From Naegleria gruberi (taxonomy: Eukaryota): a stretch of 64,000 bases of DNA. The translations under genes and the position numbers were made by a program. The stretch lies in the NCBI GenBank assembly GCA_000004985.1, contig GG738876.1, one strand, 5' to 3'. The first letter of the stretch is position 1; every line of letters begins with the position of its first letter. Positions 14,473-32,832 of this stretch are shown here, in pieces. Under the pieces are notes generated by a model. That model did not search any database. It saw only the letters and a list, made by a program, of their open reading frames with translations, and was not told the DNA's origin.

Positions 14473-16080
14473 TTATTCGAAAAATTCATCTTCATTCTGT
14501 AAGGAAAAGTTTTGGTACAGAGAACTATTATTGTTGTTATCCTCATCTGAAAAGATCTTGTCAAAATCTAGTTCGTCTGAATTATACTGGGATTGAGTTT
14601 GTTGGATTGTAGTATTGAGGGATTGATTTAAATTTTGTGGAGTAATTTCTCGGAACAGAGCTTCTAATGAAGGATCTTCAACTTCTCCAGATGAAATAAT
14701 GACAGATTGATCACCTCCAACATTAGATGGTTTCTTGTTATCCTCTTCTTTTCTTCTCATTAGTTCCTCTTTTTCCTTTTCCCAAGCTTGCTTTTCAAGT
14801 TCAAAAATTTTTCTTTGTACGAAAATGTCCTGCTCAATCGGTATGTACCTATCTAGTTCTCTAAAGATAACATCATTAACATGTTTTTCAGCAATTTTTG
14901 CTTGTTTTGAAAACTTTTCTGCTACACTCTTAATTTTTTCATCCCAATTTGGATCTTTCTTAATGGAATAGTAAAATGCTTCTTTGAATGGTTCTAATCT
15001 TTTAATCGAATCGTCTATCGAACGGAAAGGTGTCTTGTAATCAGGATCGAGAGCTAATTTCTTTTTATCCTTTTGGGAATACATATCATGATTTTGATTA
15101 GCATTGTTCATAGTAACAAATGAATTTCCTGGTTGGTTTGGATTAAAACCCTCAATCTTAGTGCCCACAACAGGTTCAGTTTTAAAAGGAGGATGACGTA
15201 CAGGGTTATTTACAGGGTTGTTTGCTAATATATTAATATTTGAAGACATATTCATAGTATTTGGTTGGGAGGATATTATTTGATTATTGGTTACAGGATT
15301 ATTTAAATTTAGCATACCATTTGGCGTTATAGTTGAGTTACCATTTTGATGTATTAGATTTGGAGGAGGTGTAGAGGCACTAGATGTTGGAGTAGATCGT
15401 TGAATTGAAGATGCTGAAGGTTGATGAATATTTACATGAGTAGTTGTAGTATTATTATTGTTTGGTGTAACATTCATATTCATAGCACCTGTATTTGATC
15501 CTTGTAATAAAGTTTGAATCAAGTTTGGATTCATGATTATAGCTTGCAACATTTGTGGTGTAATATTCACTCCACTACTGTGCAATGCTTGAAGTAATTG
15601 AAAAATTTGAGGATTGTTCTGTAATTGGAAGAGTAAAGGCATGAGTGTAGGATTACCTTGACTTGCTTGCATTAAAGCCATCAGCATACTATTTGGATTT
15701 CCTGATTGTGGATTGGTATTAGTATTGGGGGTATTGTTAACAGAAGGAATAACATTAGATGTTGTTGTTGTTGTTGATGTGGAAGTAGGAGTAGAAGCTC
15801 TAACAAGTCCCATCACGCCATTATTACTGTTGTTATTAGCAGATGTAGAGGGTGTGTTAAAGTTTCCTGTCATATTATTTTGTCCTCCTTGAAATCCAGC
15901 TAAATTTGATGGATTAATTCCCATCATTCCATTGCCCATACCTCCACTACTATTACCTCCTTGTTGATTCAACAACATGAAAGGATTTATCATACCTCCC
16001 ATTTGTTGTTGTTGTTGAAGAATTTGTTGTATTTGTAATTGACTTAGATTATTGTTGTTACCATTACCGTTTGGATTCAT
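14473..16080 (-). CDS. Asn/Gln/Thr-rich nuclear-type protein with a conserved about 130-aa C-terminal charged domain (unknown family)
   Basis: 535 aa. Starts MNPNGNGNNNN. Has poly-Q and poly-T tracts. The C-terminal block is KLALDPDYKTPFRSIDDSIKRLEPFKEAFYYSIKKDPNWDEKIKSVAEKFSKQAKIAEKHVNDVIFRELDRYIP. ATG at 16080. Confidence 0.5.
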   Translation of the reverse strand: MNPNGNGNNNNLSQLQIQQILQQQQQMGGMINPFMLLNQQGGNSSGGMGNGMMGINPSNLAGFQGGQNNMTGNFNTPSTSANNNSNNGVMGLVRASTPTSTSTTTTTSNVIPSVNNTPNTNTNPQSGNPNSMLMALMQASQGNPTLMPLLFQLQNNPQIFQLLQALHSSGVNITPQMLQAIIMNPNLIQTLLQGSNTGAMNMNVTPNNNNTTTTHVNIHQPSASSIQRSTPTSSASTPPPNLIHQNGNSTITPNGMLNLNNPVTNNQIISSQPNTMNMSSNINILANNPVNNPVRHPPFKTEPVVGTKIEGFNPNQPGNSFVTMNNANQNHDMYSQKDKKKLALDPDYKTPFRSIDDSIKRLEPFKEAFYYSIKKDPNWDEKIKSVAEKFSKQAKIAEKHVNDVIFRELDRYIPIEQDIFVQRKIFELEKQAWEKEKEELMRRKEEDNKKPSNVGGDQSVIISSGEVEDPSLEALFREITPQNLNQSLNTTIQQTQSQYNSDELDFDKIFSDEDNNNNSSLYQNFSLQNEDEFFE

Positions 16081-17229
16081 TTTTCATTGGATATTAGTAG
16101 TAGCTCGTATTGTTGTTGTTATTGTTGGAAATTAAAGATGATGATCAAAGTAAATAATGGTTATTGTTGGAATAAAAAACTAGTAATAAAAATAGTTATT
16201 GTATATAGAATAGGTGTAACAAAAACACTCTTTAGGAGAGTTGAGGACTGGTTCAATTGGTGTTAATGTTCAAACTCTTGTACTTTAGTGCCGATATTCT
16301 CTAAAAATAGGAATATTACTTTCACCCTTGTACGCGAAATAAAACTTAGGTTTAAATAGATTGAAGGAAAAGGTGCCGAGAAGTACTATCTAGTAACACT
16401 CAACATAAACCGCCAGATTAATAACAGTTATCAATCAACTTTTTAAATTGGTAACCACTCTTTTCTGACTCAAGATAATAAACTTGTTCACTATGTAAAA
16501 AAATCAGAGAAAAAAAGATCTATAAAACCAATTCCAATTATTATTTTCTGATGATGTTTTTAAAAACTTCCTTGCTGCCAAATAATAATGATGATGGCTA
16601 TTCTCTTTGACAAAAAATTGGAGGGAAGATTATTTTTTGCTTGGCCGTTTTTTTTAAAATATTAATATTAAAAATTAAATTGCATTTGTATCAGAAGCAC
16701 ACAAGTTGCTCTGGCTTGTCTTATTTTTCATCACCCAACAAGATTTCATAAACAACTGTTTAATCATCTTCGGAAGAAAATCTCATTTCCTGAACCTGAT
16801 ACTACCTTGTAATAATGTCCAATTAGAGTTCTGTTCCTTGTTTGTTTTTTTTTGAGAGATGAACGTTTTCTCGTAATGAAAGCTAGATTTTGGAAAAAAC
16901 GGACTGGTTTTGAATCCAAACAACAAGACAATCCGAGAGAAAAGTCCAATGCAATACCTACGGATGATTTTATGTGTATGCTTGGTGTTGTTTGTTCAAG
17001 ATCGGTGATGTGTACCTTTGCTCTCCGCATGTAGTCGACGACGTTATGCAAATGTGAGACCTGAATGTTGTTGTTTCGACTTGTTGGTAATTAAAGCTGA
17101 GATTGATTAAGATTTCACCTAGAATGCAACATTAGAATTTGTGGAGTTAGATGCAGGTGAAAATCTTGGGTTCAATCTCAAAACTTTGACACATTGGCGA
17201 GGAGTGCTGTTAAGCAGAGACATAAAAAC

Positions 17230-17990
17230 AAATTTTCAAACAGTAGACTGCACCCTTTGAAATGTACCCAGAAAATGCCAAATTCAAATTATATAACAAA
17301 ATAGCATCAAAAAACATCAAAATGTTAAAGAAACAATGACCCCCTAAAATACACAAACCGAATCATTGGAGCTATTCACCATTTGCAAATCTGTAGACTA
17401 AAAAGCAACATTTCTATGTGAATAGAACTGGCATTTTTACATCTCCAACTGAGAAAAGAGTTAATTGGCGAATAATTGGTAAGGAAACAATAATCTTTTA
17501 CAGATTCATTAAAGATCCAAAGAAAACAACCTTTCCTCAATAACAGTCGTTTCCCTTTTTACTGTTAGAATTGTCTAAAGCGAAATTAGATTCGAATCTC
17601 GAATAGAATGGCAAAGAAAATCTACAGAGGAAAAACTGAGCAAGGCTAAATGAAACCACAAAAAGTCTTCTTTTAAAAAAGGTACAAGACAAAACTAATC
17701 AATTAGTGAAACAACGCCCTATATTGGGCGAAATTAACGATTTGACTCGTTCCTGAAGCTGTCATTTTTGAAATCTGTAGATTGAGATGATAATTTTCGG
17801 CCCCTTAATTTCTATAGAAAGACTTCTCAATGCAAATCTGCTTGTAAGAAAATTGGCGTAATTTACAGAGATTGATATTTGTTGTCAGTTAACTGAATAC
17901 AAATGCCTCATAAAGAGCAATATTTTTACCATTTGTAAATTCTGAGCACAGGGTAATTTTTTTAGCTTTGAGAAAGGCCAAGCTGTCATC
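17230..17990. promoter_or_regulatory. cluster of about 5 degenerate copies of a TTTG[ACT]AAATCTGTAG-like motif upstream of the RWP-RK-like gene
   Basis: Copies: ctttgaaatgtaccc (17255), atttgcaaatctgtagac (17385), ttttgaaatctgtagattg (17768), aatgcaaatctgcttgtaag (17830), atttgtaaattctgagcac (17930). A reverse-orientation ctacaga lies at 17615. They sit within a 2-kb ORF-free block that is GC-richer than other intergenic DNA. Confidence 0.3.
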
Positions 17991-18126
17991 CTTCAATAAT
18001 CATTAAGTAGTTAATGAACCATCTTCAAGAAGCAATTAACACTTTAATACTGTGCGATAGGCTTCGTTGTTACCATTTCAAAATAAACCGAAGCCTCTGA
18101 ACCAACAAAACAACAGGTAAAAAAAT

Positions 18127-20919
18127 ATGTCTCTAAAGGAACCAATGACTTCTTGCGTTCCTGATGCTCTCCAAAGTGTATTGCCGTCATCTCATCAACA
18201 CAAAGCTGGTGATGGTATGATTTGTAATAGGAATGATATTGTTCCAAATTTCAATCATGTTCTTCAACAGGGAACAAGAACATGTGGCCAAATTTCTATC
18301 ATAGACAACAGTAAAAATTCAAACAAACATTTAAGTGAAGAGTTCCTACAACAACATCCAAAGTCCTTGTTTGGCATACATGCCAATAGTAATTTTCTTT
18401 ACTGTCATAATCAATTTGATGATGGTGCCAAAGAAATTACTTGTAACAATATGTTCAATAGACCAAACACATGTACAGAGACCCAAATAAGACAATCAAT
18501 AATCTCGAAGGAAATGGAGATGCATGACAACACAATGGACACTGCTCTTCCTCCATTACGATTTAACATAACTGACCTTAATGAATCAAATTCACCACAT
18601 TTGTCGAGATGCAGCCTACAGCAAAAAATTGAAGTATCCTTCACAAGTCAAAAGTTGAAAGATGAATCAAGAAGATCACCACCAACCTCACAAGGTGCAT
18701 CATCATGCATAACTAGGAATAATAGAGAACCAAATGCAAACTCTGACCTTGCATCTTTAAATATGGAAAGTTCAAACTACAGACCCCTACCTTACGAATA
18801 TGTTCCATCTGTACAGTCAAGCCTTAAATCAGAACCGCTAACAACCAAACATAACATTTACAGAGGAGGAAAAACAAATCTGTCACCACCTGATTTAGGT
18901 ATCACGACTAACAATGATACAACGCTCAATTCTCTAAGGTCGCCTCCCCAACGCCAACAACAACAAGACCAGCACCAAGAGCAAAATCATTCTTTGGGAA
19001 CTCGGGATGATCAGCAAGTAGTCAACGACACAAACAGAACCACCAAATATTCATTTCAACAAATGCAAAAACAACCACCTCTGGTAGAGATGAATCCTGT
19101 CGCTAGTGGTGGATCTTTTGCAACTAAGCAGCTTAGTACTCCTCCTACTCGTAACAACAACAACAATACAAGTACTCATAGTATGATGAGTCAGAGTAGT
19201 TGTACTCCAATTGCTTCTTCAAATCCTCTCTATTCATATAATCATCAACAATCCGCATCTCTTAATAACACTTGCCCACCACCTGCTAATTCATCAGCTC
19301 ATAATCCTCCTTACAGCAATAATAATTTGCTCATGGTATCACAACCACACCATAATTCCTACAGAAATCTTCCTTCAACAATATCACGTGCTTCAACAGC
19401 AACAGGATCAACACTCAGAGATCATGATACAGTGATACAAAGTTCAGCCTCTTCCCTACTACTCCTATCAGAACAAAAACAACCATCTTATATTGGTGGT
19501 GGTTTGATAGCTAATGATTCCGCTAGAAGTTTAGAAGCTGTTGCTGCTGTTCCTGTTGCCCAGGGCTGTACTAGTGAGAGAATCCCTACAACCCAATCAT
19601 CCTTGCATTATTCATCCATTCCACACTCTTCCTCTTCTTTACTGGGCAAAAAGCAAAGAATGACTTCAACAATAACTGCGAGTACTAATATTCCTCAATC
19701 ATCTTTGAACGCTCCTCAACAACCAACTAATCCTCTCTCCAATAATAATTCAATCAAACCTCACCAAACAACTAATATTAAGTTTCATCTCCTTGATGAT
19801 CCAAATCTTAAACAAGATGAGCATAGAAGCAATTTTGTAAGAATTGATGAGGAACAGATACGAAAAGTATTCCATCTTACTCAGAGACAAGCAGCTGCTT
19901 TTTTAGGAGTTAGTTTATCTACACTCAAAAGACGATTCTATGAAATGAGAGAAAGTTTAGGAATGGATAAGTGGCCTACTACAGCAAATGGTACTACAAC
20001 AATACCAGCAACACAAACTAGTGCATGTGTTGTTGGCCCAACCAATTCATCTTCGAGTAATTTGAGTAACAACAATGCAACTTCAAGAAATAATAAGGGG
20101 TCTAGAAAGAATTCTCTTCAATCTGATCAAACTTTGAATATTCCAACAACTCCTCTTACGAATTTGAATGATAATCATTCCTCCTATCATATTGATCCAT
20201 ATAACAATGCTTCCTCCCGTAGAACATCAGTAACTTCTCAAGACGAGTTTACTTATCAAAAAATTGGAACACCACATAATGGAAATTCCTCAATAATGAA
20301 TCAAAATAATCATTCTTCGTATTTACCTCAATCAACAAATAATCTCCCTGCTGTAAATATTTCACTTCCTCCAATAGTTACTTCCCCTTATTCTAACCCA
20401 ACTTCAAAACCCCAACTTCCAAACAATGATAGTCTCGACAATTTTCTTTCTAGGTATGCTCCTAAATCTTTCGATGATATTGCCCAAGATTCTGACAAGT
20501 GCCTTCCAGTTTCAACCACTTTAAAGAGAAGAACCAATGTTTTTGGGCAAGGTCATGATCCAATTCTTATTGCTAAAATGTTTTCTGAAGAGACAACAAC
20601 TAGTAATTCAAGAAAAAGATCCTATCCAAATATTTCTACAATTGAAAATAAGGAATTTGAGAAGGACAGTTACTCATCTCAATTACCAAGACATTCCAGT
20701 TTCAGTAGTCAAGGAAGTATGGATGGCTCATTTGAACCACCAAGAAAAGTCAACAAGGCATTCCCAATTAATAAGAGAGGAAGCACAGACGAAAATGCAG
20801 AACCAAAAACAAATAATCCATCCAACATGAGTTTTATCCTCAATGAAGGAGTTAAGGACCCAACTCATCTTGATAAGGAAGAATGGAATACACTAATGGA
20901 AGCATTTAAAAAACAATAA
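18127..20919 (+). CDS. large low-complexity protein with a C-terminal RWP-RK-like domain (KWP variant); putative transcription regulator
   Basis: 930 aa, single exon. The candidate domain is EEQIRKVFHLTQRQAAAFLGVSLSTLKRRFYEMRESLGMDKWP. Compare the RWP-RK core L..FHL...AA..LGV..T.LKR.CR..GI.RWP: this copy has a 4-aa insertion and K in place of R. The rest is S/T/N/Q/P-rich. Confidence 0.55.
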   Translation: MSLKEPMTSCVPDALQSVLPSSHQHKAGDGMICNRNDIVPNFNHVLQQGTRTCGQISIIDNSKNSNKHLSEEFLQQHPKSLFGIHANSNFLYCHNQFDDGAKEITCNNMFNRPNTCTETQIRQSIISKEMEMHDNTMDTALPPLRFNITDLNESNSPHLSRCSLQQKIEVSFTSQKLKDESRRSPPTSQGASSCITRNNREPNANSDLASLNMESSNYRPLPYEYVPSVQSSLKSEPLTTKHNIYRGGKTNLSPPDLGITTNNDTTLNSLRSPPQRQQQQDQHQEQNHSLGTRDDQQVVNDTNRTTKYSFQQMQKQPPLVEMNPVASGGSFATKQLSTPPTRNNNNNTSTHSMMSQSSCTPIASSNPLYSYNHQQSASLNNTCPPPANSSAHNPPYSNNNLLMVSQPHHNSYRNLPSTISRASTATGSTLRDHDTVIQSSASSLLLLSEQKQPSYIGGGLIANDSARSLEAVAAVPVAQGCTSERIPTTQSSLHYSSIPHSSSSLLGKKQRMTSTITASTNIPQSSLNAPQQPTNPLSNNNSIKPHQTTNIKFHLLDDPNLKQDEHRSNFVRIDEEQIRKVFHLTQRQAAAFLGVSLSTLKRRFYEMRESLGMDKWPTTANGTTTIPATQTSACVVGPTNSSSSNLSNNNATSRNNKGSRKNSLQSDQTLNIPTTPLTNLNDNHSSYHIDPYNNASSRRTSVTSQDEFTYQKIGTPHNGNSSIMNQNNHSSYLPQSTNNLPAVNISLPPIVTSPYSNPTSKPQLPNNDSLDNFLSRYAPKSFDDIAQDSDKCLPVSTTLKRRTNVFGQGHDPILIAKMFSEETTTSNSRKRSYPNISTIENKEFEKDSYSSQLPRHSSFSSQGSMDGSFEPPRKVNKAFPINKRGSTDENAEPKTNNPSNMSFILNEGVKDPTHLDKEEWNTLMEAFKKQ

Positions 20920-21163
20920 AGCATAATACGCTTTAATATATTTTGTTTTAATTCTTGTAATGATTCATTACAAAAAACAACACTCTTCAAAACCTACCTT
21001 TATTGAGGCGAAATTGTGGTATTACCCTGATTTGTAACTTTCATTTGAAGATGAAATTACCGTTTATCGGCGCCTTCAACAAAAATCAATAGCCAAAAAA
21101 AAACGTTACCTACAAGCAAAAAGACTCTCACAGTTGTAGACAACACGTTAAAGATTCTTTTTC

Positions 21164-23236
21164 ATGTCATCAACAATGAACAACAGCAACAGGGAGGAGG
21201 TAACGCCTCTGATACAGAACACTACTAGTGTAGTATCATCAACATCGATAAATAATGGCAATTATCAACAACAAGACACAACACTGATTAGGAGGAATGT
21301 ATCTCCTTCTACATTAAAAAGAGCTGATATTGGAAAAGACTATTATACAGACAATCATAGTAATCGCTCTAGCTCTAGTGATTTATCTAACCTCGAGAAA
21401 CAACCAATTTACAAAGCTAAAGGAACTAAAAAACAAAAATTTCTATTCCATTTCTTTAATATTTCATGCCCACTTTTCATTGTAGTACTGGTTGCTTTAG
21501 GACTGGGAGTGGGATTGATTTTTATACTGTCGAGGACACAAACTGAAGTACAACCAACTGGTACTAGGGCCGCTGTGGCAAGTGATAGTACGATTTGTTC
21601 CGAAATGGGATTGAAAGTCATAAAGGAAAAGAAAGGAAATGCTGTTGATGCAGCCATTGTAGTTGCTTTATGTTTGGGTGTCACTAGACCATTTGCTAGT
21701 GGAATAGGTGGAGGTGGATTTATTACTATTTTCATGAATGAAACAAAGACTGTGGATTTTATTAATTCAAGAGAAACTGCTCCTAGTGCTGCCAGTCAGG
21801 ATATGTATGAAAATAATTATGATGAAAGCGTATTTGGTGGAAAGTCCATTGCTGTTTATGGAGAAATTAGAGGATTACATACAGCTCACAAACTCTATGG
21901 TAAATTACCTTGGAAGGAGTTATTCACTGATGTTATCAATATTGCCAGAAATGGTTGGATTGTTGAGCCGTTGTTGGCTGTGCGATTATCACAGGATGAT
22001 ATTCTTAAATTCCCAACATTGGTACAATTTACAACCATTGGTTCTGATGGAAAGAGAAGAGTTTATCATGAAGGTGAATTAATTAAGAGAACTGATTTGG
22101 CAAATACTTTGGAGAAAATTGCTTCAGATGGTCCAAACATTCTCTATGAAGGTCCAATTGCTCAAAAGATTGTAGAAGAAATACAACAACAAGGTGGCAT
22201 TATTACATTGGATGATTTGAAGAACTATCAACCTGAAAGACCTTTCTATGATGAAAATCCAATTATTTCTCAAAAAGACATGACATTGGAATTGAATGAT
22301 TTTAAGGTGATTTTACCTCCACCACCATCTGCTGGACCTGTTATCAAGTTTATTTTGAGTATTTTGAATAATTTCAAGATTGGTGATAATTCACCAATGG
22401 GTCTTAACTATCACTATATTTTGGAAGCTTTGAAATTTGGATTTGGACATAGATCCAATCTAGGAGATGTTAATTTCTTACCTAAGGAAAATGTTACAAA
22501 ATATATCATTAATCAATTACTAAGTGATAGTTATGCCTCTAGTATTGCATCTGAGAGGGTTTCTCCATCAAGAACATTCCCATGGTCACATTATTATTCA
22601 GATAATTATGCACCTGTTAAGGATAAGGGTACATCCCATTTCTCTGTTATTGATGAAGATGGAAACTCTGTTGCCATGACCACTACAGTCAACCATAACT
22701 TTGGAAGTAAGGTTGCTAGTGCATCAACAGGTATTGTCTTTAATAACCAAATGAATGATTTCACAGTAGATCTTCACAAACCAAATCAATTCGGATTACC
22801 ACCATCTGCAGCTAATGTTATTGCTCCAGGCAAACGACCATTGAGCTCAATGTCACCTGCTATTTTCCTTGATAAGAGTGGAAATAGGGTCAAGTATATT
22901 ATTGGAGCTTCAGGAGGACCAACAATTATCAGTGCAATTATTGAAGTTTTTTATTCAATTGAAAAGTTTAAAGTCCAACCAAATCTCGCAGTTGCACTTC
23001 CAAGACTTCATGCTCAACCTGGTTCAGATGTAGTCAAAATGGAAGAGGGTTTCAATAGACAAGTTATCACTGCTCTACAAGAAAAGGGACATACCTTTGA
23101 ACCTGTTCAAATTCTTCCAGATGGCCATACTATAGGATGCTGTCAAGTCATTCAAGTTAGCAGCACTGAAAATGACCAAAATCTTTTCCTTCCTGGAACA
23201 GATCCAAGAAAATTAGGTAGTCCCGCTTGCTTTTAA
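21164..23236 (+). CDS. gamma-glutamyltranspeptidase (GGT, Ntn-hydrolase), type II membrane anchored
   Basis: 690 aa. N-terminal signal-anchor FHFFNISCPLFIVVLVALGLGVGLIF. Autocatalytic and catalytic region TSHFSVIDEDGNSVAMTTTVNHNFGSKV. PLSSMSPAIF and GASGGPTIISAI motifs are typical of GGT. Confidence 0.85.
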   Translation: MSSTMNNSNREEVTPLIQNTTSVVSSTSINNGNYQQQDTTLIRRNVSPSTLKRADIGKDYYTDNHSNRSSSSDLSNLEKQPIYKAKGTKKQKFLFHFFNISCPLFIVVLVALGLGVGLIFILSRTQTEVQPTGTRAAVASDSTICSEMGLKVIKEKKGNAVDAAIVVALCLGVTRPFASGIGGGGFITIFMNETKTVDFINSRETAPSAASQDMYENNYDESVFGGKSIAVYGEIRGLHTAHKLYGKLPWKELFTDVINIARNGWIVEPLLAVRLSQDDILKFPTLVQFTTIGSDGKRRVYHEGELIKRTDLANTLEKIASDGPNILYEGPIAQKIVEEIQQQGGIITLDDLKNYQPERPFYDENPIISQKDMTLELNDFKVILPPPPSAGPVIKFILSILNNFKIGDNSPMGLNYHYILEALKFGFGHRSNLGDVNFLPKENVTKYIINQLLSDSYASSIASERVSPSRTFPWSHYYSDNYAPVKDKGTSHFSVIDEDGNSVAMTTTVNHNFGSKVASASTGIVFNNQMNDFTVDLHKPNQFGLPPSAANVIAPGKRPLSSMSPAIFLDKSGNRVKYIIGASGGPTIISAIIEVFYSIEKFKVQPNLAVALPRLHAQPGSDVVKMEEGFNRQVITALQEKGHTFEPVQILPDGHTIGCCQVIQVSSTENDQNLFLPGTDPRKLGSPACF

Positions 23237-23803
23237 TAAATACCTTTTAAGGTGTATAGGATTCTTTATAATTTCTCATCTGGTCAGAGATTCCTCAATT
23301 GCACATTTGCAACACTCTTGTATTAGAAAGGAGAATATTGAATAAGGATGTTGTCGTTGTTTTCATTGAGATAGAGATTAGAATTTTATTTGTGAATGTA
23401 AAACAAGGTAATTTTAGAGTCAATAAGGATGAGTTGAAAGAGATAGAGCTACTATGCGATTGTATCTTGATTTTCATGGATCCTGATGGTTTATGAAAAA
23501 ACCGAACTGGTATTTTGAAAATTGACCAAATTCGAATGCATATCCCAAAACACATTATCTTTCGACATTAATGGTCCATTACATCAATTCAATAAATACG
23601 AATCAAAGTCTCGCTTTAAATTGTACTATCACAATCCATCAAAATGTGTGTTTTTTTAACGCGACACGAATTGGATCCCTACATGTAATTCCATCTCTTC
23701 ACTGGTTTAGATACCATTCAATTACGATTTTTGTGAGCCCACACCACTTGTTTCTATTGAGTTTTTTACCTTGTACAGTCGAAAAAAACACCACAACACA
23801 ATA

Positions 23804-25480
23804 ATGTTCCAATCTCAAATACCTTCTCAACAACTCTCAGCGATATGTATGAGAGAACAACAATCTCAACAGCCACAACAACATTATCCTAGAGATGCAT
23901 TAGAACTAAATCAACGATTCAAGGATCATCAACAATTTAAAGGTGATCATCCTTTTCATCACAAAGAGCTAGATTCATTAATTTATCAACAACCTCAACA
24001 ATACAATAAGGAAGATTTTGCTTTTCAAAACTCAGAAAACACTACAGCTCCATTAAATGTGATGGCAGTAATTTCAACAAGTTCCTCAATAGAACCAAGG
24101 TTAAGACTGGACATGTACAACAATGCATCTGGCCATTCCTCCTCGCAAGCGGCCACAGATTCAATCAAAATGGAAACAAAACAAGAGCTACCCATGCAGA
24201 TGCTCAATAAGGATAACAAAAATTCTCTCATAACCATGAGCACAACTCCCCATACTAATATTAACAGCAATAACCAACATGCAACTAATTTATTTCAACA
24301 TCATGTGAACATGCAGAATAATAACCATTCAGCTTCACCTATGAACCATCACCATTCTACAGATTCGATATCCTCACTCAATCATAATACTACAACATGT
24401 AAACAAAATTCTCAAAATTCCTCATGTCACATCCAACCATCCACTCAACAACAACCCTTCTTCCACAATTCACAGCCAATTAATCAAGAGACGCAACCAC
24501 AACAAAACACAGTTCAAGACAATTCAAAAAATAGGCCACAAAGGAGAAATAGTAACAGCTCCTGTTCTCCAAAGAAACGAACCACATTTGGGATGTCTAA
24601 TCATTATCAACAACAACATGTTGGTGGCACATCAGTAAGAGGTGATGGTGGCCAACAATCTTACATGCCATTTAATGCTTCTCCATCCAAATATAATAAC
24701 AATTTAAACACATCTACATGTGGTGAAATAATATCGAATAGCAATGGAACCACTTCTGAATATCATCAATTTATGAACAATAATTATTCATTGCAACAAC
24801 GAATTGAAACATCATCTCGATCAACAACTTCCCTACAAAATGTTTCTCCAATGCATGCTCAAAAGTCCGTGCAAGTTTCACCACCTCCATCTTCAAACAA
24901 CAGCACCACCACATTCAACATTCAACAGGAAAAGATTAAAAAACCAAGAAAAACCATCAAGAGAAAGTATCAATTCAAGAATGTCAAGTCAGGAGAGAAT
25001 GTTAGATCTAATTCCTCAAGTCCATCTTCTCCATCCTCCTCTCAGAATCAACATTCTAATGATTCTAAATGTAATTCCATTGAGACTGTATCCTATTATA
25101 CAACTACAGATGGAAAGGAATTGGATTTAACTGGCTATTATCAACATCAATTACAGTATACAACTTTTGATTTCTATAATAATTCATCAGTATCAATTGT
25201 AAAGGCAAATCCAACCTTTGATGTAAAGAGTTTCAAGAGGAGTGTTGATTCAATTTCAAAGGATGAATTACTCAGAGTTTTACATTTAACTCAACAACAG
25301 GCGAGTACAATATTGGGCTGCAGTGTTTCAACCATTAAAAGAAGATTTTATGGTTTGAGAAACGAGTTGGGTTTAACCAAGTGGCCAAATAATTACTTTG
25401 AATATAGTCATATGAAATTGTTTGAGGAGATTTATCCACTTTCCTTAAACTTTATTTTGAATAAGGGTGAGAGCAGATAG
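23804..25480 (+). CDS. paralogous low-complexity protein with C-terminal RWP-RK-like (KWP) domain
   Basis: The track ORF starts at a TTG at 23771; the first ATG is 23804 (MFQSQIPSQQ...). The C-terminal block is KDELLRVLHLTQQQASTILGCSVSTIKRRFYGLRNELGLTKWPNNYFEY. It is collinear with the domain of the 18127..20919 protein. Confidence 0.55.
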   Translation: MFQSQIPSQQLSAICMREQQSQQPQQHYPRDALELNQRFKDHQQFKGDHPFHHKELDSLIYQQPQQYNKEDFAFQNSENTTAPLNVMAVISTSSSIEPRLRLDMYNNASGHSSSQAATDSIKMETKQELPMQMLNKDNKNSLITMSTTPHTNINSNNQHATNLFQHHVNMQNNNHSASPMNHHHSTDSISSLNHNTTTCKQNSQNSSCHIQPSTQQQPFFHNSQPINQETQPQQNTVQDNSKNRPQRRNSNSSCSPKKRTTFGMSNHYQQQHVGGTSVRGDGGQQSYMPFNASPSKYNNNLNTSTCGEIISNSNGTTSEYHQFMNNNYSLQQRIETSSRSTTSLQNVSPMHAQKSVQVSPPPSSNNSTTTFNIQQEKIKKPRKTIKRKYQFKNVKSGENVRSNSSSPSSPSSSQNQHSNDSKCNSIETVSYYTTTDGKELDLTGYYQHQLQYTTFDFYNNSSVSIVKANPTFDVKSFKRSVDSISKDELLRVLHLTQQQASTILGCSVSTIKRRFYGLRNELGLTKWPNNYFEYSHMKLFEEIYPLSLNFILNKGESR

Positions 25481-25650
25481 CATGCTTTGCATGTGTTGAA
25501 TATTCAGATGTTAGTTTCGTTAACATCCATGCGTTACCTGAGCATGCATGATCATTATGCATGAGAACGACGTTGTATAGTGAATCTAAGATGCATGAGA
25601 TACTTGCATCATGTATGCAGGCTGAATCTCAAAATTAAGTTGGTTTGATT
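25481..25650. promoter_or_regulatory. (T)GCATG / CATGC-rich palindromic cluster in the shared 3-prime region of two convergent genes
   Basis: At least 8 copies of GCATG or TGCATG sit within about 140 bp, for example gcatgc, tgcatg, ccatgcg, gcatgcatgatcattatgcatg, gatgcatgag, gtatgcagg. The surrounding intergenic DNA lacks the motif. UGCAUG is a known RNA-binding-protein site class. Confidence 0.35.
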
Positions 25651-25898: not shown

Positions 25899-28276
25899 TC
25901 ATTTACTCATATCAATGGAAATATCATCAGTGAGGGTTTGGGTGCTGTGTGTAGAGATAGATGAAATACTCTCTCTTATCTTTTTGATAGCAAAGTCTAG
26001 TAAACCAACGATTGGAAAATCAAGCCATATTTTCTCATCATTATTCATTTCGTTTGTCCATAGAATCAATCTTTGAAGGAGGAATGATTTTTCTTCACTA
26101 GAAATTTGGGATGGATTAGTAAGGCATTTGGAGAGCTCTTGCCTTAGTTCTATCCTCTCTTTATCACATGGTTCAATATAGATTGGTAAAGTGAGCATTG
26201 AGACAGACTCTCTAAATTGGTTTCCTAATTCAAAGTGTTGGACATAGTACCTTCTTGGTGAGTTAGAATCAATGGCCCAGTAAAGGGTATGCGTTCCCTC
26301 TAAGCCTTTGAGCTCAAAATTACCCATATTATCAAAGTGAATCTGTCCATCTTGGACTAGTTCTTTAAATTGCTCTAGTTCGTCTTTGAAAGTCGTAATA
26401 AAAGGAGTATCTTTAGGCAGACTATTGGTAGATGAAAGAGCTGTGGCGCGGTGCTTAATAAAACTTTGGACATCTGAACTGACATATACTCTACCACCAT
26501 GTGATTTGCTTTCAGTTCTTGCAGCTTGGTTGACTGCAGTGCCAAAGTAATCATATCTCTTGGTGGTTGGGTCAAATTGGGATTCAATTTCTTTTCCAAA
26601 GTGAACGCCCATTTTAACTCTTGGTCCTTTGTAAATAATTTCATTATTCCACTTGACTTCTTTCATGTCTGGAAATTCCAACATTTCAGGTGTCCAATGT
26701 CCTTTCAATAAGCCGTTTTGAATAGCAAAACAGCAACCTAGTGCTTCTATTGGATCATTGAATGCGATCATAAAACTGTCTGATTGGGTTTTCACTTCAT
26801 ATCCTTTAAACTTTCGAATATTTTCTCGCACTATTCTATGGTGAATGGCCAATACTTTCTTCATCAAATCTGAATCTAAAGTCCACATTAAGGATGAATT
26901 TTGTATGTGAGTGAAAACAATGCAAATAGGAGCTACTTTTGGAGCTAGACGATTTTCTCTCTTTCTAATCGAATTCTTTCTAACAACCCATCCAATCAAG
27001 AACACAAAAATTCCAACCAATAATATTGCAATAGTAAAACTGACAACACTGATGGAAATAATGAATTCGTTTCTCTTCTCAATTGGTAATACAGGCTCAG
27101 CAGTCCAAGCTTTCCACTTGGCTGTATTGTTTGGGTTTGATAACCACTTACAAGCAGCATCTTCTAAAGTCATTGAATTGTAAGCAACATATCCCATCAT
27201 GGTTACTTGATCTCTACCTCTATAATTCAAATTTTTAAGAAAGTTTTGAACACTTGAAGAGAGAGAAGAGACAGCACTCGTTTGGAGCTTACTATATGTT
27301 GACAAAGGGTAATCACAATCAACCAATCCATTGGCAATATTGTGAGCTGTATGACAGCTATCAGTAAATTGAGGAAGATAGATTCTAGATGGTGGATTAG
27401 GTCTACTGAATAATTGATGTGGAAACCAAAAATATGAAACCATCTCTTTTCGTTGTTGTTGAGCGTTTTGTAAATTTTCAATGAGATAGGTTTCAGTATC
27501 ATTATCAGGTGCATATTCCAACTGCAAATTCAACTTTAAATTCTTGATAATCTGATCATCATAATTCACCCAAGTTTTAGAGCCACTGACCATTCTTGTC
27601 ATGTTTGAAAGTCTAAAGTATCTGTAGTTATTTTGAACTGCATCCTTCATGAAATTTGGAATGAAAAACCCAATTTGGCCACTCGGACCCAAATCGCCAA
27701 TGTCTGTAATATGTTTACCATTAACCACATATTTTCTAAGATGAAAAGATTACTTGTTAGAAAGATCAGCGCATGCACTTACTTGTAATTTTCAAAGTTA
27801 GATAATTTCCAGTATTCTAACAACGCAATTGGACGTGTGGCTCCTTCCTTTTCCATAAGTTCCAAAGAATCCACAATATTTAGTTTTAAAATATCAACGC
27901 AAACTCCTAATTTTTCCTCGAGTATTATTGTTGCAAGAGCATTATTCATCGAGCTCGCCAGCCAATTATTTTCAATAAGAGTTATTCTTGGTGAAAAAGA
28001 GGAACAGTGGCTTGAAGATGCATCTTCAGGTAGACAACTGGCAACTGTTTTTCTAGTCGACGAAATATGTTGATACTGATGGGTTTGCATGTTTTCCAAT
28101 GGCGATCCACTCACAAAATAATAAGTTTCGTAATCGTGATTGTCAAGCTTATCAGCACCAATAAACATGCTAATAACAAATACAAAAAGTATTAATTTTG
28201 TGATAATGGATAATCTGGACCGTTTCCAATAATGTAATCCAACAAAACTACTACTACTAATATTCCTCGTAATCAT
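25899..28276 (-). CDS. receptor-type class III adenylyl cyclase, paralog 1: signal peptide, about 390-aa extracellular domain, 1 TM, catalytic domain; 2 exons 28276(or 28516)..27783 and 27735..25899
   Basis: The catalytic domain shows the adenine-specifying Lys in KGYEVKTQSDSFM and Asp in KRYDYFGTAVNQAARTES, which suggests ATP rather than GTP specificity. TM helix is FTIAILLVGIFVFLIGWVV. Exon 1 carries a hydrophobic signal-like segment (LSIITKLILFVFVISMFIGA). Intron 27782..27736 is 47 nt, GTAAGT...CTTAG, phase 2, with a CTAAC branch. The junction reads ...LEYWKLSNFENY-K-KYVVNGKHITDIGDLGP. The start codon is ambiguous: in-frame ATGs lie at 28516, 28276 and others. Confidence 0.7.
26590..26990. 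repeat. about 400-bp segment nearly identical at nucleotide level to 31160..31560 in the paralogous cyclase gene
   Basis: One run is 100% identical: ctcttggtcctttgtaaataatttcattattccacttgacttctttcatgtctggaaattccaacatttcaggtgtccaat, at 26616..26698 versus 31187..31269. The flanks are about 90% identical. The rest of the two genes is much more diverged. This fits gene conversion between tandem paralogs. Confidence 0.6.
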
Positions 28277-28835
28277 AATATTCAATATAAAATAGCAAAT
28301 CCACCACATAATTCTCGAATCAAACATGATAAAATCACAATATGAAATTTCATCCATTTGTATTTCAAACTTTCTTTGATTAATCGTGTATTCATCATCT
28401 CCTACTTCTTGTTCATTCCGTCTTCCCTCCAGAAGCAGCATTAATACGTTGTTGTTGCCAGCACAAGTTGTATCGGAAAGAACATGTTTGCCCATTTTTT
28501 TTCGTTCTCTCGTCATGTAAGATCGTGATGCCTAGCCTTATCTTCTTTTTTATACCAAATCCAGCTTGCGCGCCAAAGATTCTCTCATTACAGCGAATTT
28601 AGAGAGTTTCATTAAGGAAATGATGCAATAGAATATTGTGTTATTTATTTGTAATGGATTATATTCTATCATCTCCCAGTGCAGTTCTTCGACATTTCGT
28701 TTATATTGAATTGAAAGAAGTATTTATGCTTGAAGTATAGATAACTTACAATTTTGTAACTTTTAAATTCTGAATGAGTTGAGTAATGTTGTGATCGAAA
28801 ATGAACTTTTTTTCTAAAAATAAAAATATAAAAAA

Positions 28836-30370: not shown

Positions 30371-32832
30371 TTATGCTCCAGATTGAATCAATTCTTCAGG
30401 GCATGACATTACTGCGATAGAACTAGAAGAAGAAAGCGACTCTTTTCTACAGGGTTGAGCGACACTATTTCGTCTTTTCCTGTTATCTGGACGGATAATT
30501 GTATCTTCATATGCATATTCTTTGTTATCTGAAACAATGTTATCCATTTCAGCAGGAAGATAATGAGAGATGACAATTGGTATGAGATGCTTCAATTCCA
30601 ATTCAGTCCATGCATCCTTTTCTTCTTCGGTATCATTATTCCACAATACAAGCCTATGCAGAAGTTTACTCTTCTCATTTTCATTCCATTTCGATGGATC
30701 ACTTATACATGATGCACACGATTGTTTCAATTCCATTCGTTCCTTATCAATTTTCTCTCTCAACAATGGAACTGATAATCCAGAGTCAATTCTAACATGA
30801 GGCAACAATTCGAATTGTTGAATGTAGGAAGTTCGAGGGGAAGTTGTATCCATAATCCAAAACAAAGTGTGATTACCTTCCAATCCTTTCAAAATAAAGT
30901 TTCCCATATTTTCGAATTGGATTTTTCCAGAGTAAAGCAATTGTTTGAATTGAAAGATTGGATCCTTATGAATGGGAAACCCCTTATCCATGCAAATATT
31001 GCAACGAGAAGCTCCTCCCATTTGATGCTTTAGGTGGTCGTGAATATTTGAGCAAATGTAAATTCTTCCTCCTTGAGCTTGATTTTCAGTTCTAGATGCT
31101 TGGTTGACCGTCGTGCCAAAGTAATCATATCTCTTGGTGGTTGGATCAAAATGAGCTTCCACTTCACTGCCATAATGAAGGCCCATTCTAACTCTTGGTC
31201 CTTTGTAAATAATTTCATTATTCCACTTGACTTCTTTCATGTCTGGAAATTCCAACATTTCAGGTGTCCAATTTCCTTTCAACAAATCATTCTGAATAGC
31301 AAAACAACAACCAATTGCTTCTATTGGGTCACTGAAGGCAATCATAAAGCTGTCTGATTGAGTTTTCACTTCATATCCTTTAAACTTTCGAATATTGTCT
31401 CGAACAATTTTGTGATGAATGGTAACAACTTTCTTCATCAAATCTGAATCCAAAGTCCACAACAGTGAAGCATTCTGAATATGAGTGAAAACAATGCAAA
31501 TAGGTGGTGCTTTTGGGGCCAATCTATTTTCTCTCTTTCTAATCGAATTCTTTCGAATGCAAAATCCACAGCAAAAAACACAAAAACCAATTAGTATAAT
31601 AGCAAGTGTAAACCCCACAACAGTCATTGAAATAATAAAGGCATTACTCTTCTCCGGTTGAAAAGGTGGCTCTGAAATCCAACTCTTCCATCTCTCTGTA
31701 TTATTGCCTTTCAAAATCCAAGTACAGGCAGCATCCTCTTTCGACATTTTATCATACGAAACTAAGCCTAACAGTTCAATCTGGTCAGCATTCGTCAGTT
31801 TCATCCTTTCCAAAAAGTTTTGCACTTTTTCAGGAAAACTCAACACTGCCCTAGTTTGCAGTTTACTGTAAGTAGTCATGGCAAAATCACAATCCACCAA
31901 ATTATTCTCCACATTGTGAGGTGATACACATTCTGCAGTAAATGGTGGAAGTGTCACACGTTGTGGAGCATTAGGTCTACTGAATAATTGATGAGGTGTG
32001 AAAAAGTAGGAAACCAGCTGCTTTCTCTCCCGTTCTGCATTTCTCAACTCTTGAATCAGAAACTTCTCAGTGTAATTCTGAGGAGGATATTCCAAAACGA
32101 GATTCAATTTCAGATTTTTAATAACCTGCTCATCAAAGTTGACCCAAGTTTTTGCTCCACTAATGTAACGTGTAGCATTCACTGTACGATAGTATCGATA
32201 ATTCAAGCTCAGTGGATTATCTATAGCCATCCAATTAGGAATATACCATCCAACTTGTCCTAATGGACCTAAATCTCCAATATCCATTACATTTCGTCCA
32301 TTTAACACATACTTTCTAAAACATTTCAATAAGAAACATTCAATTATTATTCCACCATTCCAGAAAACAATCCAAAAATCAATCACAGTTTAATTATTTA
32401 TCAAGTAAAAATTGAGATTTCTTACCTGTAAACATCCAAATGATTTAACTTCCAAAATTCTAACAAGACGTAGGGAACCTCATCTCCTCTACTCTCCATC
32501 ACTCTAAGAGATTCATCCACGCCATATTCCTCAACATCGACACATACTCCAAGTACTTCCTCGAGGAAAACTTTTGCTATTTGAATGTTCATCGTTGTTG
32601 CTAACCAATTATATTGGATTAGTTTAATTCTGGGCGAAAGTGGTGTGCATGCAGTTCCTGAGGCGGTATGAAGTGAAGGAAGGCATGATGATGATGTTGA
32701 ATATGATGTTGGTGAAACATGTTGTTGGTTTGATGGTTTAGAATGTGCAAACAAGATGACTAAACACAAGACTAAACTCAATCGAAAGAAGTAACGAAAT
32801 AGAAGGGAATAATTGCGTCGCCGTTTCTTCAT
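30371..32832 (-). CDS. receptor-type class III adenylyl cyclase, paralog 2; 2 exons 32832..32426 and 32315..30371
   Basis: Signal peptide MKKRRRNYSLLFRYFFRLSLVLCLVILFAHS. The probable start at 32832 is internal to track ORF 32422..33132. Same architecture and same intron position and phase as paralog 1. Intron 32425..32316 is 110 nt, GTAAGA...TTTTAG. The junction reads ...LEFWKLNHLDVY-R-KYVLNGRNVMDIGDLGP. Catalytic motifs: KGYEVKTQSDSFMIAF and RYDYFGTTVNQASRTE. Confidence 0.7.

What the first reader, a model, noticed from the sequence alone, without database searches (positions are those of the whole stretch)
18127..25480. Two paralogous low-complexity proteins sharing a divergent RWP-RK-like (KWP) C-terminal domain, flanking a GGT gene
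The proteins at 18127..20919 and 23804..25480 are unrelated over most of their length. Both end in the same roughly 50-aa block: HLTQ(R/Q)QA(A/S)..LG(V/C)S(L/V)ST(L/I)KRRFY..R..LG(M/L)(D/T)KWP. This resembles the RWP-RK DNA-binding domain of plant NIN-like and algal MID/MTD regulators and slime-mould proteins. It has a 4-residue insertion before the tryptophan and Lys in place of Arg in the RWP triplet. If it is a true RWP-RK derivative, it defines a variant subfamily. The genes are likely developmental or nitrogen-response transcription regulators. The first copy sits behind an unusually long (2 kb) ORF-free upstream region.
Basis: partly seen in the sequence, partly recalled or inferred. Interest (0 to 1): 0.65.

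Follow-up and report, generated by a model that had tools for sequence, protein, structure and literature searches.

The report
Divergent RWP-RK transcription-factor genes in Naegleria
The two genes encode Naegleria gruberi proteins whose shared block is a real but divergent RWP-RK DNA-binding domain; databases already label them as such, and they belong to a large amoeba-specific branch of the family with a lengthened third helix, no 'RK' motif and an undescribed extra tail motif.

Summary
The window is Naegleria gruberi. The two ORFs are NAEGRDRAFT_58387 (930 aa) and NAEGRDRAFT_80184 (558 aa). UniRef already names both 'RWP-RK domain-containing protein'.

The shared block is real: 24/45 identical, E=8e-15, and nothing else aligns. 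It matches Pfam RWP-RK as best family. Protein 1 scores 32.7 bits, above the 29.3 cut-off. Protein 2 scores 24-29 bits, just below.

The 4-residue insertion and the Lys before Trp-Pro are confirmed. Four points were missed or wrong:
- In protein 1 the block is internal (residues 573-617 of 930), not C-terminal.
- The 'RK' half of RWPxRK is absent in both proteins.
- Lys is not fixed in the clade (K 32, R 13, other 8 of 53 representatives).
- A second conserved motif, (Y)P(M/L)SLxFILN, lies 17 aa after WP in protein 2 and 281 aa after it in protein 1.

The 13-residue-spacer form was found only in Naegleria and Willaertia. It is nested in a heterolobosean 'KRRFY' class that passes Pfam's threshold.

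AlphaFold models give a three-helix HTH, with helix 3 at 15 residues against 10 in the short-spacer class.

A 2021 paper's supplement already counts 39 RWP-RK proteins in N. gruberi. This is a modest variant of a known family. Function is untested.

The parts
16081..18126 (.). ORF-free divergent spacer between the GLTSCR1-domain gene (minus strand, ends at 16080) and protein 1. It is presumably promoter and 5' UTR.
   Evidence: It has no ORF over 95 aa and no tRNA or Rfam match. It is the largest gap in the window. A long spacer at the same position also exists in N. fowleri (2.8 kb) and N. lovaniensis (5.9 kb). It shares no DNA similarity with them.
18127..20919 (+). Protein 1 gene, NAEGRDRAFT_58387, 930 aa. 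It is mostly low-complexity sequence rich in S, T, N and Q.
   Evidence: It is 100% identical to the public protein, which UniRef names 'RWP-RK domain-containing protein'. Orthologues occur in N. fowleri, N. lovaniensis, Willaertia magna and one metagenome.
19780..19977 (+). Protein 1 conserved core, residues 552-617: KFHLLDDP...HRSNFVRIDEEQIRKVFHLTQRQAAAFLGVSLSTLKRRFYEMRESLGMDKWP. This is the three-helix HTH of RWP-RK type, ending in KWP.
   Evidence: Pfam PF02042 scores 32.7 bits (cut-off 29.3) over residues 574-618. Nearly every residue is invariant across five orthologues, while the flanks do not align.
19948..19959 (+). The 4-residue insertion in protein 1 (R608-L611, RESL) relative to canonical and short-spacer RWP-RK domains.
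   Evidence: The hhalign gap falls directly after RRFYE(L/M). The spacer is 13 residues against 9. Position within helix 3 is inferred from the P2-like model, where helix 3 is 15 residues against 10 in the short class.
20821..20916 (+). Protein 1 C-terminal module, residues 899-930: SNMSFILNEGVKDPTHLDKEEWNTLMEAFKKQ. It is the displaced second half of the heterolobosean domain.
   Evidence: It is conserved in all orthologues. HMMER matches positions 72-82 of the P2-like profile here as a separate fragment. It aligns with the module that directly follows WP in short-spacer relatives. It has no Pfam match.
21164..23236 (+). Gamma-glutamyltranspeptidase gene. It is an unrelated neighbour and not part of the feature.
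   Evidence: PF01019 matches at E=2e-145. The gene sits beside the P1 orthologue in N. lovaniensis but not in N. fowleri.
23804..25480 (+). Protein 2 gene, NAEGRDRAFT_80184, 558 aa. It is low-complexity apart from the C-terminal domain.
   Evidence: It is 100% identical to the public protein, which UniRef names 'RWP-RK domain-containing protein'. The closest relative found is another N. gruberi gene, NAEGRDRAFT_74996 (66% identity over the domain).
25253..25387 (+). Protein 2 HTH core, residues 484-528: ISKDELLRVLHLTQQQASTILGCSVSTIKRRFYGLRNELGLTKWP. The insertion is R519-L522 (nt 25358-25369).
   Evidence: PF02042 scores 24.3 bits full length and 28.7 bits as an isolated domain. AlphaFold2 on a 35-sequence alignment gives pLDDT 88-92 over this core, with helices at model residues 14-20, 25-32 and 36-50.
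25433..25462 (+). Protein 2 YPLSLNFILN motif, residues 544-553. It starts 15 residues after WP, and the stop codon comes 5 codons later.
   Evidence: The motif occurs in 42 of 54 long-spacer representatives within 40 aa of WP, against 1.2 expected from shuffles. P73 and N81 are invariant in alignment A3.

Best explanation
Both genes encode nuclear sequence-specific DNA-binding regulators of the RWP-RK superfamily. They belong to a lineage-specific expansion in heterolobosean amoebae.

Shown here:
- The shared block folds as a three-helix helix-turn-helix.
- Helix 3 (S-T-L/I-K-R-R-F-Y...) carries the invariant Lys-Arg.
- The 4-residue insertion lengthens helix 3 from about 10 to about 15 residues before the Trp-Pro turn.
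- The canonical Arg-Lys after Trp-Pro is missing.
- A second conserved module (hydrophobic-x-F-I-L-N, then about 8 residues, then L-D-x3-hydrophobic-x2-L-x2-A-F) is contiguous with the HTH in related short-spacer proteins.
- Protein 2 keeps only the FILN part of that module, 17 residues after WP.
- Protein 1 keeps the whole module, but about 280 residues of rapidly evolving low-complexity sequence separate it from the HTH.

Inferred, not shown:
- Helix 3 is the DNA-recognition helix, and these proteins bind DNA.
- The FILN module packs back on the HTH or mediates dimerisation or partner binding.
- The low-complexity regions serve as activation or scaffold regions.
- The long upstream spacer of protein 1 is regulatory DNA.

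The two genes are old paralogues from different subgroups ('LGVS...YEMR' against 'LGCS...YELK'). Their adjacency around the GGT gene is specific to N. gruberi.
For: Identity:
- Both proteins are 100% identical to N. gruberi entries.

Family:
- PF02042 is the top Pfam hit for both proteins and for 35 of 35 relatives.
- The short-spacer relatives score 35-49 bits against a 29.3 cut-off.
- They link to the long-spacer profile at hhalign E=6.7e-30 with one 4-column gap.

Clade:
- An exhaustive HMMER search of 1.84 billion representatives gave 219 hits at E<=0.001.
- The best 57 hits are the long-spacer form. Of the 53 whose motif could be read, all have a 13-residue spacer; the hits below them have 9-11.
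- Every named long-spacer hit is Naegleria gruberi, N. fowleri, N. lovaniensis or Willaertia magna.
- Named short-spacer hits are Naegleria, Willaertia, Sawyeria and Acrasis.

Fold:
- The AlphaFold2 models have pLDDT of about 90 over the HTH. Helix 3 spans model residues 36-50 in the long class and 34-43 in the short class.
- All top PDB fold and sequence neighbours are HTH DNA-binding domains: NtrC/Fis type, GerE/LuxR, LysR and sigma region 4.

Constraint:
- P1 orthologues conserve only the HTH block and the C-terminal module. Everything else is unalignable.

Module:
- It is strongly enriched after WP: 42/54 long-spacer and 21/61 short-spacer proteins, against 1.2 and 0.4 in shuffles.
- HMMER splits P1's profile match into the two halves.

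Literature:
- RWP-RK is the third-largest DNA-binding-domain family in Naegleria: 39 proteins in N. gruberi and 26-27 in N. fowleri.
- The N. fowleri orthologue of P1 is listed there as RWP-RK (PMC8296547 supplement).
Against: - No DNA-binding, localisation or expression data exist for either protein.
- The defining RWPxRK signature is only half present. The Arg is Lys, and within the clade it is also Q, H, S, T or A. The RK pair is absent, so DNA-contact chemistry may differ or be lost.
- P2 is below Pfam's gathering score on its own.
- The model tail that holds the FILN motif has low confidence (pLDDT 55-65), so its packing is unknown.
- Foldseek matches to the PDB are all non-significant (best E=0.49).
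Confidence: 0.78

Rival explanations
1. These are degenerate RWP-RK domains that no longer bind DNA. Having lost the basic RK pair and often the Arg before Trp-Pro, they would act as partners or antagonists of canonical RWP-RK factors, which Naegleria also has. Binding would go through the FILN module, in the way Id-type HLH proteins act.
For: - RK is absent in both proteins.
- The position before WP varies within the clade: K, R, Q, H, S, T or A.
- Canonical RWPYRK proteins coexist in N. fowleri.
- A conserved extra motif of unknown role is present.
Against: - The helix-3 Lys-Arg and the surrounding S-T-L-K-R-R-F are invariant or nearly so across the clade. That is the pattern expected of a functional recognition helix.
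- Basic residues precede helix 1.
- The short-spacer relatives carry the same FILN module while keeping basic tails after WP, so the module is not a replacement for DNA binding.
Confidence: 0.12
2. The block is a generic helix-turn-helix of another origin, for example a Fis/NtrC-type or Xre-type HTH acquired from bacteria. On this view it only resembles RWP-RK by convergence.
For: - The best solved-structure sequence match is an NtrC-family Fis-type HTH (4l5e, E=0.003).
- There are weak Pfam hits to Xre-like HTH, sigma-70 region 4 and HTH_8.
- Some metagenomic relatives are auto-named 'NtrC family response regulator', 'YiaG' or 'AraC-like'.
Against: - All those families score below their cut-offs, and RWP-RK scores highest in every protein tested.
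- The Trp-Pro after helix 3 is invariant.
- An unbroken series runs from canonical RWPYRK through short-spacer KRRFY to the long-spacer form within the same genus.
Confidence: 0.05
3. The similarity is a by-product of a recent local duplication. The two genes would be a tandem pair with one copy decaying, so the 'variant' features are drift rather than a conserved subfamily.
For: - The two genes lie 2.9 kb apart on the same strand.
- N. fowleri also has two P2-like genes flanking an unrelated gene.
Against: - The two domains are only 53% identical and fall in different subgroups. P1's domain is about 95-100% conserved with its orthologues in other species and in Willaertia.
- The syntenic loci in N. 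fowleri and N. lovaniensis have no second RWP-RK gene.
- Both ORFs are intact, and the spacer length is fixed at 13 in 53 representatives.
Confidence: 0.03

Closest known systems
Canonical RWP-RK transcription factors (Pfam PF02042): plant NIN/NLP and RKD, Chlamydomonas MID/NIT2
   Same: - The same domain family by profile search.
- The same helix 1, helix 2 and helix 3 order, with an L-G-(V/C)-S-x-(S/T)-T-L-K-R core and an invariant Trp-Pro after helix 3.
- Single domain copy embedded in otherwise non-conserved protein.
   Different: - The spacer from KR to WP is 13 residues rather than 9.
- Helix 3 reads KRRFY instead of KRxCR.
- Lys replaces Arg before WP.
- There is no Arg-Lys after WP.
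- No PB1 or GAF-like domain is present.
- An extra FILN...LD...AF module lies outside the Pfam model.
Short-spacer 'KRRFY' RWP-RK proteins of Heterolobosea (for example N. gruberi NAEGRDRAFT_70437, Acrasis kona AKO1_011786, and Willaertia and Sawyeria proteins)
   Same: - The closest relatives: hhalign E=6.7e-30.
- The same STLKRRFY helix 3.
- The same FILN-type module after WP.
- The same taxonomic group.
   Different: - They have a 9-11-residue spacer and mostly Arg before WP.
- Tyr and a basic stretch follow WP.
- They pass the Pfam cut-off.
- Their helix 3 is about 5 residues shorter in the model.
Naegleria RWP-RK catalogue in Herman et al. 2021 (PMC8296547, Additional File 5)
   Same: It lists the N. 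fowleri orthologue of protein 1 and several P2-like domains as RWP-RK, and counts 39 such proteins in N. gruberi.
   Different: - It is a Pfam-based count only.
- The held text of the paper and its supplements does not mention the insertion, the missing RK or the FILN module.
- Its main text discusses one up-regulated canonical-type gene (RWPYRR), which is not an orthologue of either window gene.
Bacterial Fis/NtrC-type HTH (Pfam HTH_8; PDB 4l5e)
   Same: It is the best sequence match among solved structures (E=0.003) and a compact three-helix HTH.
   Different: - It scores below the family cut-off.
- It has no Trp-Pro element.
- This is resemblance of fold class, not membership.

Membership tests
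RWP-RK domain (Pfam PF02042) | Match to the family profile at or above the curated gathering score (29.3 bits) | tested here: met
   - Protein 1 scores 32.7 bits, E=7e-8.
- Protein 2 alone does not reach the cut-off: 24.3 bits full length and 28.7 bits as an isolated domain.
- Protein 2 is tied to threshold-passing relatives by hhalign at E=6.7e-30.
RWP-RK domain (Pfam PF02042) | RWPxRK signature motif | tested here: not met
   - P1 reads KWPTTA and P2 reads KWPNNY.
- Only Trp-Pro is kept.
- The Pfam alignment stops at model position 43 of 49, before the RK positions.
- No long-spacer member has RK after WP.
RWP-RK domain (Pfam PF02042) | Canonical spacing of 9 residues between the helix-3 Lys-Arg and Trp-Pro | tested here: not met
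   The spacing is 13 residues in both proteins and in all 53 long-spacer representatives whose motif could be read. hhalign shows a single 4-column gap.
RWP-RK domain (Pfam PF02042) | Helical helix-turn-helix fold | tested here: met
   The AlphaFold2 model has three helices with pLDDT 88-92. All top PDB neighbours are HTH DNA-binding domains, although their E-values are not significant.
RWP-RK domain (Pfam PF02042) | Sequence-specific DNA binding and transcriptional regulation | not testable with these tools
   No experimental data were found for any heterolobosean member. A search for 'RWP-RK' plus 'Naegleria' returned 3 papers, none functional.
NIN-like protein (NLP) subfamily | C-terminal PB1 domain and N-terminal GAF-like region flanking the RWP-RK domain | tested here: not met
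   Neither protein has a PB1 or GAF Pfam match at E<=1.
RKD / MID subfamily | Short protein with a C-terminal canonical RWPxRK domain, grouping with RKD/MID in phylogeny | not tested
   - Protein 2 has a C-terminal domain, but the motif and spacing differ.
- No cross-kingdom tree was built.
- The best hits are all heterolobosean.
Fis/NtrC-type HTH (Pfam PF02954 HTH_8) | Match at or above the gathering score (22 bits) | tested here: not met
   There is no HTH_8 hit for P1 or P2 at E<=1. Relatives score 13-17 bits.

The most novel reading that the evidence does not exclude
The heterolobosean 'KRRFY' RWP-RK proteins carry an undescribed bipartite domain: an HTH plus a FILN...LD...AF module. The two halves must come together to bind DNA or to oligomerise. 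In protein 1 they do so across about 280 residues of disordered linker, which would make it a naturally split DNA-binding domain. This clade is about half of the third-largest transcription-factor family in Naegleria. It could supply regulators of the amoeba's life-cycle switches (amoeba to flagellate, encystment, or the never-observed sexual cycle), in parallel with MID and RKD roles in algal and plant gamete identity.
Probability: 0.15. Interest if true: 0.55.

Novelty: new variant of a known kind. Interest (0 to 1): 0.3.

Why it matters
RWP-RK factors are usually treated as plant and algal regulators of nitrate signalling and gamete identity. Their presence and large expansion in Heterolobosea appears in the literature only as a supplementary count.

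This work shows that about half of the Naegleria set forms a distinct branch. That branch has a longer third helix (the presumed recognition helix), no RK pair and an extra conserved module. The result gives a concrete handle for three things:
- Asking which parts of the RWPxRK signature are needed for DNA binding.
- Improving profile models. Protein 2 and many relatives fall below Pfam's threshold and are named only 'predicted protein'.
- Choosing candidates when Naegleria differentiation or pathogenicity regulators are sought.

This refines what is known about an existing family. It does not identify a new kind of system.

Tried and rejected
1. Full-length searches of the 5.8-billion-protein index returned only the query proteins, because low-complexity words swamped the candidates. 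The two-sequence domain alignment returned nothing there. The exhaustive HMMER search was what worked.

2. I tested whether the P1-GGT-P2 arrangement is conserved. It is not. N. lovaniensis has P1-GGT and N. fowleri has P1 only, and neither has a second RWP-RK gene there.

3. I looked for conserved non-coding sequence in the 2 kb upstream spacer. N. gruberi shares nothing detectable with N. fowleri or N. lovaniensis. The 287-aa gene called in the N. lovaniensis spacer has no counterpart in the window.

4. I tested whether protein 2's early stop hides a relic or a missed exon of the LD...AF helix. An in-frame 'HALHVL' directly after the TAG looked suggestive, and a GGTGAG sits at the last codons. 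A profile of the module scores the read-through at -2.4 bits, and no downstream frame encodes the helix. Rejected.

5. I asked whether the RWP-RK gene up-regulated in mouse-passaged N. fowleri is the P1 orthologue. It is not. It is a canonical RWPYRR-type protein.

6. The Foldseek search of the PDB gave no significant match (best E=0.49). No RWP-RK chain appears among PDB sequence matches, so there is no solved reference structure to compare with.

7. Look-ups of the N. gruberi paralogues P0007 and P0008 in the contig index found nothing on record.

8. One literature search with broad taxon terms returned only irrelevant papers.

Full report
**What is there**

The region holds three co-oriented intact ORFs:
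- 18127..20919, 930 aa ('protein 1').
- 21164..23236, a gamma-glutamyltranspeptidase (PF01019, E=2e-145).
- 23804..25480, 558 aa ('protein 2').

Proteins 1 and 2 are 100% identical to Naegleria gruberi NAEGRDRAFT_58387 and NAEGRDRAFT_80184. UniRef already calls both 'RWP-RK domain-containing protein'. The window is therefore from the heterolobosean amoeboflagellate N. gruberi, not from a slime mould or alga.

**Check of the observation**

BLASTP of the two proteins aligns a single ungapped block, P1 573-617 against P2 484-528. It is 24/45 identical with E=8e-15, and nothing else is significant. A profile scan of the six-frame translation finds no further copy in the 64 kb.

In protein 1 the block is internal, with 313 residues after it, so it is not C-terminal.

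The 2,046-bp ORF-free stretch upstream of protein 1 (16081-18126) is real. It is the largest gap between long ORFs in the window and has no tRNA or Rfam hit.

**Is it RWP-RK?**

- Pfam PF02042 is the best family for both proteins. P1 scores 32.7 bits, above the 29.3 gathering score. P2 scores 24.3 bits, or 28.7 bits as an isolated domain, just below.
- All other HTH families are far below their cut-offs.
- An exhaustive HMMER search of 1.84 billion representative proteins, using the two-sequence domain profile, gave 219 hits at E<=0.001.
- Reading the motif in the best 150 shows a clean split. The top 57 are the long-spacer form. Of these, 53 could be read and all have exactly 13 residues between the helix-3 Lys-Arg and Trp-Pro. 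Below them the spacer is 9-11, and 9 is the canonical value.
- The short-spacer proteins share the helix-3 sequence STLKRRFY and pass the Pfam threshold comfortably at 35-49 bits.
- A profile of 35 long-spacer domains aligns to a profile of 42 short-spacer domains with probability 99.8% and E=6.7e-30. There is a single 4-column gap immediately after RRFYEL.

Homology to RWP-RK is therefore secure, and the 4-residue insertion is confirmed and placed.

**What differs from the canonical domain**

- Spacer: 13 residues, not 9.
- Helix 3: AlphaFold2 on the family alignments gives a three-helix HTH with pLDDT of about 90. Helix 3 is 15 residues in the long-spacer class and 10 in the short-spacer class. 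The insertion therefore adds about one and a half turns to helix 3 rather than enlarging the loop.
- Residue before Trp-Pro: Lys in both window proteins, but not fixed in the clade (K 32, R 13, Q 4, H/S/T/A one each). 'KWP' is a tendency, not a signature.
- Missing RK: the Arg-Lys pair that gives the family the second half of its name is absent (KWPTTANG, KWPNNYFE). The Pfam alignment stops at model position 43 of 49.

**A second conserved element**

The small FILN(E/K)G match seen in BLAST is part of a strongly conserved motif.
- In P2-like proteins, YP(M/L)S(L/M)xFILN follows Trp-Pro after 17-19 residues. It is present in 42 of 54 long-spacer proteins, against 1.2 expected from shuffles.
- In the short-spacer class the equivalent (K/R)(K/R)x-hydrophobic-x-(Y/F)-I-L-N follows after 11-14 residues. 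It continues into x7-10-L-D-x3-hydrophobic-x2-L-x2-A-F. An example is KKRTVKYILNTKNKPTKLLDPHTIHTLALAFK. It occurs in 21 of 61 proteins against 0.4 expected.
- Protein 1 carries the whole module at its extreme C-terminus (residues 899-930, SNMSFILNEGVKDPTHLDKEEWNTLMEAFKKQ), 281 residues after Trp-Pro. HMMER splits its match to the P2-like profile into these two pieces.
- In the alignment of P1 with its orthologues from N. fowleri, N. lovaniensis, Willaertia magna and one metagenome, the HTH block (with a short KFHLLDDP lead-in) and this C-terminal module are essentially the only conserved parts. The HTH block is nearly invariant.
- Protein 2 stops five codons after FILN and lacks the last helix. 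I found no relic or missed exon downstream.
- The module has no Pfam match.
- Its structure in the model is low-confidence (pLDDT 55-65), so whether it packs on the HTH or serves dimerisation is inference only.

**Taxonomic range and family context**

- Every long-spacer hit that carries a name is from N. gruberi, N. fowleri, N. lovaniensis or Willaertia magna.
- Named short-spacer hits are from Naegleria, Willaertia, Sawyeria and Acrasis.
- Most other hits are unnamed metagenome or transcriptome fragments, so these limits are provisional.
- Herman et al. 2021 (PMC8296547) list RWP-RK as the third most numerous DNA-binding-domain family in Naegleria, with 39 proteins in N. gruberi and 26-27 in N. 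fowleri strains.
- Their table includes the N. fowleri orthologue of protein 1 and several P2-like domains. It also includes canonical RWPYRK proteins from the same genome.
- String counts in that table (KRRF plus KRKF 45, RWPY 45, KWP 20, across three strains and isoforms) suggest that about half of the family is of the KRRFY class.
- The one RWP-RK gene discussed in their main text, as up-regulated after mouse passage, is a canonical RWPYRR type and not an orthologue of either window gene.
- I found no paper that describes the insertion, the loss of RK or the FILN module.

**Genomic context**

- The P1 orthologues in N. fowleri and N. lovaniensis keep the divergently oriented GLTSCR1-domain gene upstream. 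They also keep a long spacer: 2.8 kb, and 5.9 kb with one unsupported 287-aa gene call.
- A long upstream region is thus a conserved property of this gene, consistent with complex regulation. No sequence similarity to the N. gruberi spacer is detectable.
- GGT follows P1 in N. lovaniensis but not in N. fowleri. Neither species has a second RWP-RK gene there.
- P1 and P2 belong to different subgroups ('LGVS...YEMR' and 'LGCS...YELK'; 53% identity). P2's nearest relative found is another N. gruberi gene.
- They are old paralogues that happen to be neighbours in this species, not a tandem pair.

**Most likely mechanism**

- Shown: family membership by profile; an HTH fold with an extended helix 3; strong purifying selection on the HTH and the C-terminal module amid fast-evolving low-complexity sequence.
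- Inferred: these are nuclear transcription factors that read DNA with helix 3, where the invariant K-R-R sits. The FILN/LD...AF module is a family-specific accessory element for intramolecular packing or partner binding. The S/T/N/Q-rich regions are disordered effector regions.
- Main rival (about 0.12): loss of RK has turned them into non-DNA-binding modulators of canonical RWP-RK proteins.
- Minor rivals: convergence from another HTH family, or drift after a recent duplication. Both are poorly supported.

**Verdict**

The assignment is already in public databases, and the family's expansion in Naegleria has been counted in print.

What is new here is descriptive:
- A discrete Naegleria/Willaertia subclade with a 4-residue-longer helix 3 and no RK.
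- An accompanying conserved C-terminal module that is split off by about 280 residues in protein 1 and truncated in protein 2.

This is a modest variant of a known family (interest about 0.3).

Noticed in passing
L001 7185-7940 and L002 4125-4845 (N. fowleri and N. lovaniensis, directly upstream of the GLTSCR1-domain gene start; the equivalent of window 16081-16900): An approximately 800-bp block is 71% identical between the two species and has no ORF longer than about 80 aa. The rest of the spacer does not align, and N. gruberi shows no match. It could be a conserved 5' UTR, a promoter or a non-coding RNA of the GLTSCR1 gene.
   Followed up: partly
L001 12262-12459, compared with L002 12558-14663 and window 21164-23236: The gamma-glutamyltranspeptidase gene lies next to the protein 1 orthologue in N. 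gruberi and N. lovaniensis. It is absent from the syntenic position in the pathogen N. fowleri, where the MFS/PTR2 transporter gene follows directly.
   Followed up: no
window 20506-20565 (protein 1 residues ~794-813, LPVSTTLKRRTNVFGQG): This is a second, weak match to helix 3 of the short-spacer RWP-RK profile inside protein 1's low-complexity tail. It is not conserved in the orthologues, so it is chance or a decayed internal repeat.
   Followed up: partly
L003 6001-7192 and 9957-10583 (N. fowleri): Two P2-like RWP-RK genes flank an unrelated uracil-DNA-glycosylase gene. This is the same layout of two RWP-RK genes around an unrelated gene as in the window, and it suggests that family members tend to sit in loose local clusters.
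   Followed up: no
window 25899-27728 (-) and 30371-32386 (-): These are two paralogous adenylate/guanylate cyclase catalytic-domain genes (PF00211, E=6.5e-20 and 1.4e-20). Each has an upstream ORF on the same strand that may be a further exon (27779-28516 and 32422-33132).
   Followed up: no
window 25462-25500: Protein 2's last codons read AAT AAG GGT GAG AGC AGA TAG, containing a GGTGAG that resembles a splice donor. The in-frame peptide after the stop begins HALHVL. Neither a missed exon nor a relic of the LD...AF helix is supported. Many P2-like relatives also end within 2-9 residues of FILN.
   Followed up: yes
window 14473-16080 (-): The neighbouring gene encodes a Q/N-rich protein with a GLTSCR1 domain of the BRD4-interacting, SWI/SNF-associated type (PF15249, E=2e-19). 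Its pairing with the protein 1 gene across a long divergent spacer is conserved in three Naegleria species.
   Followed up: partly
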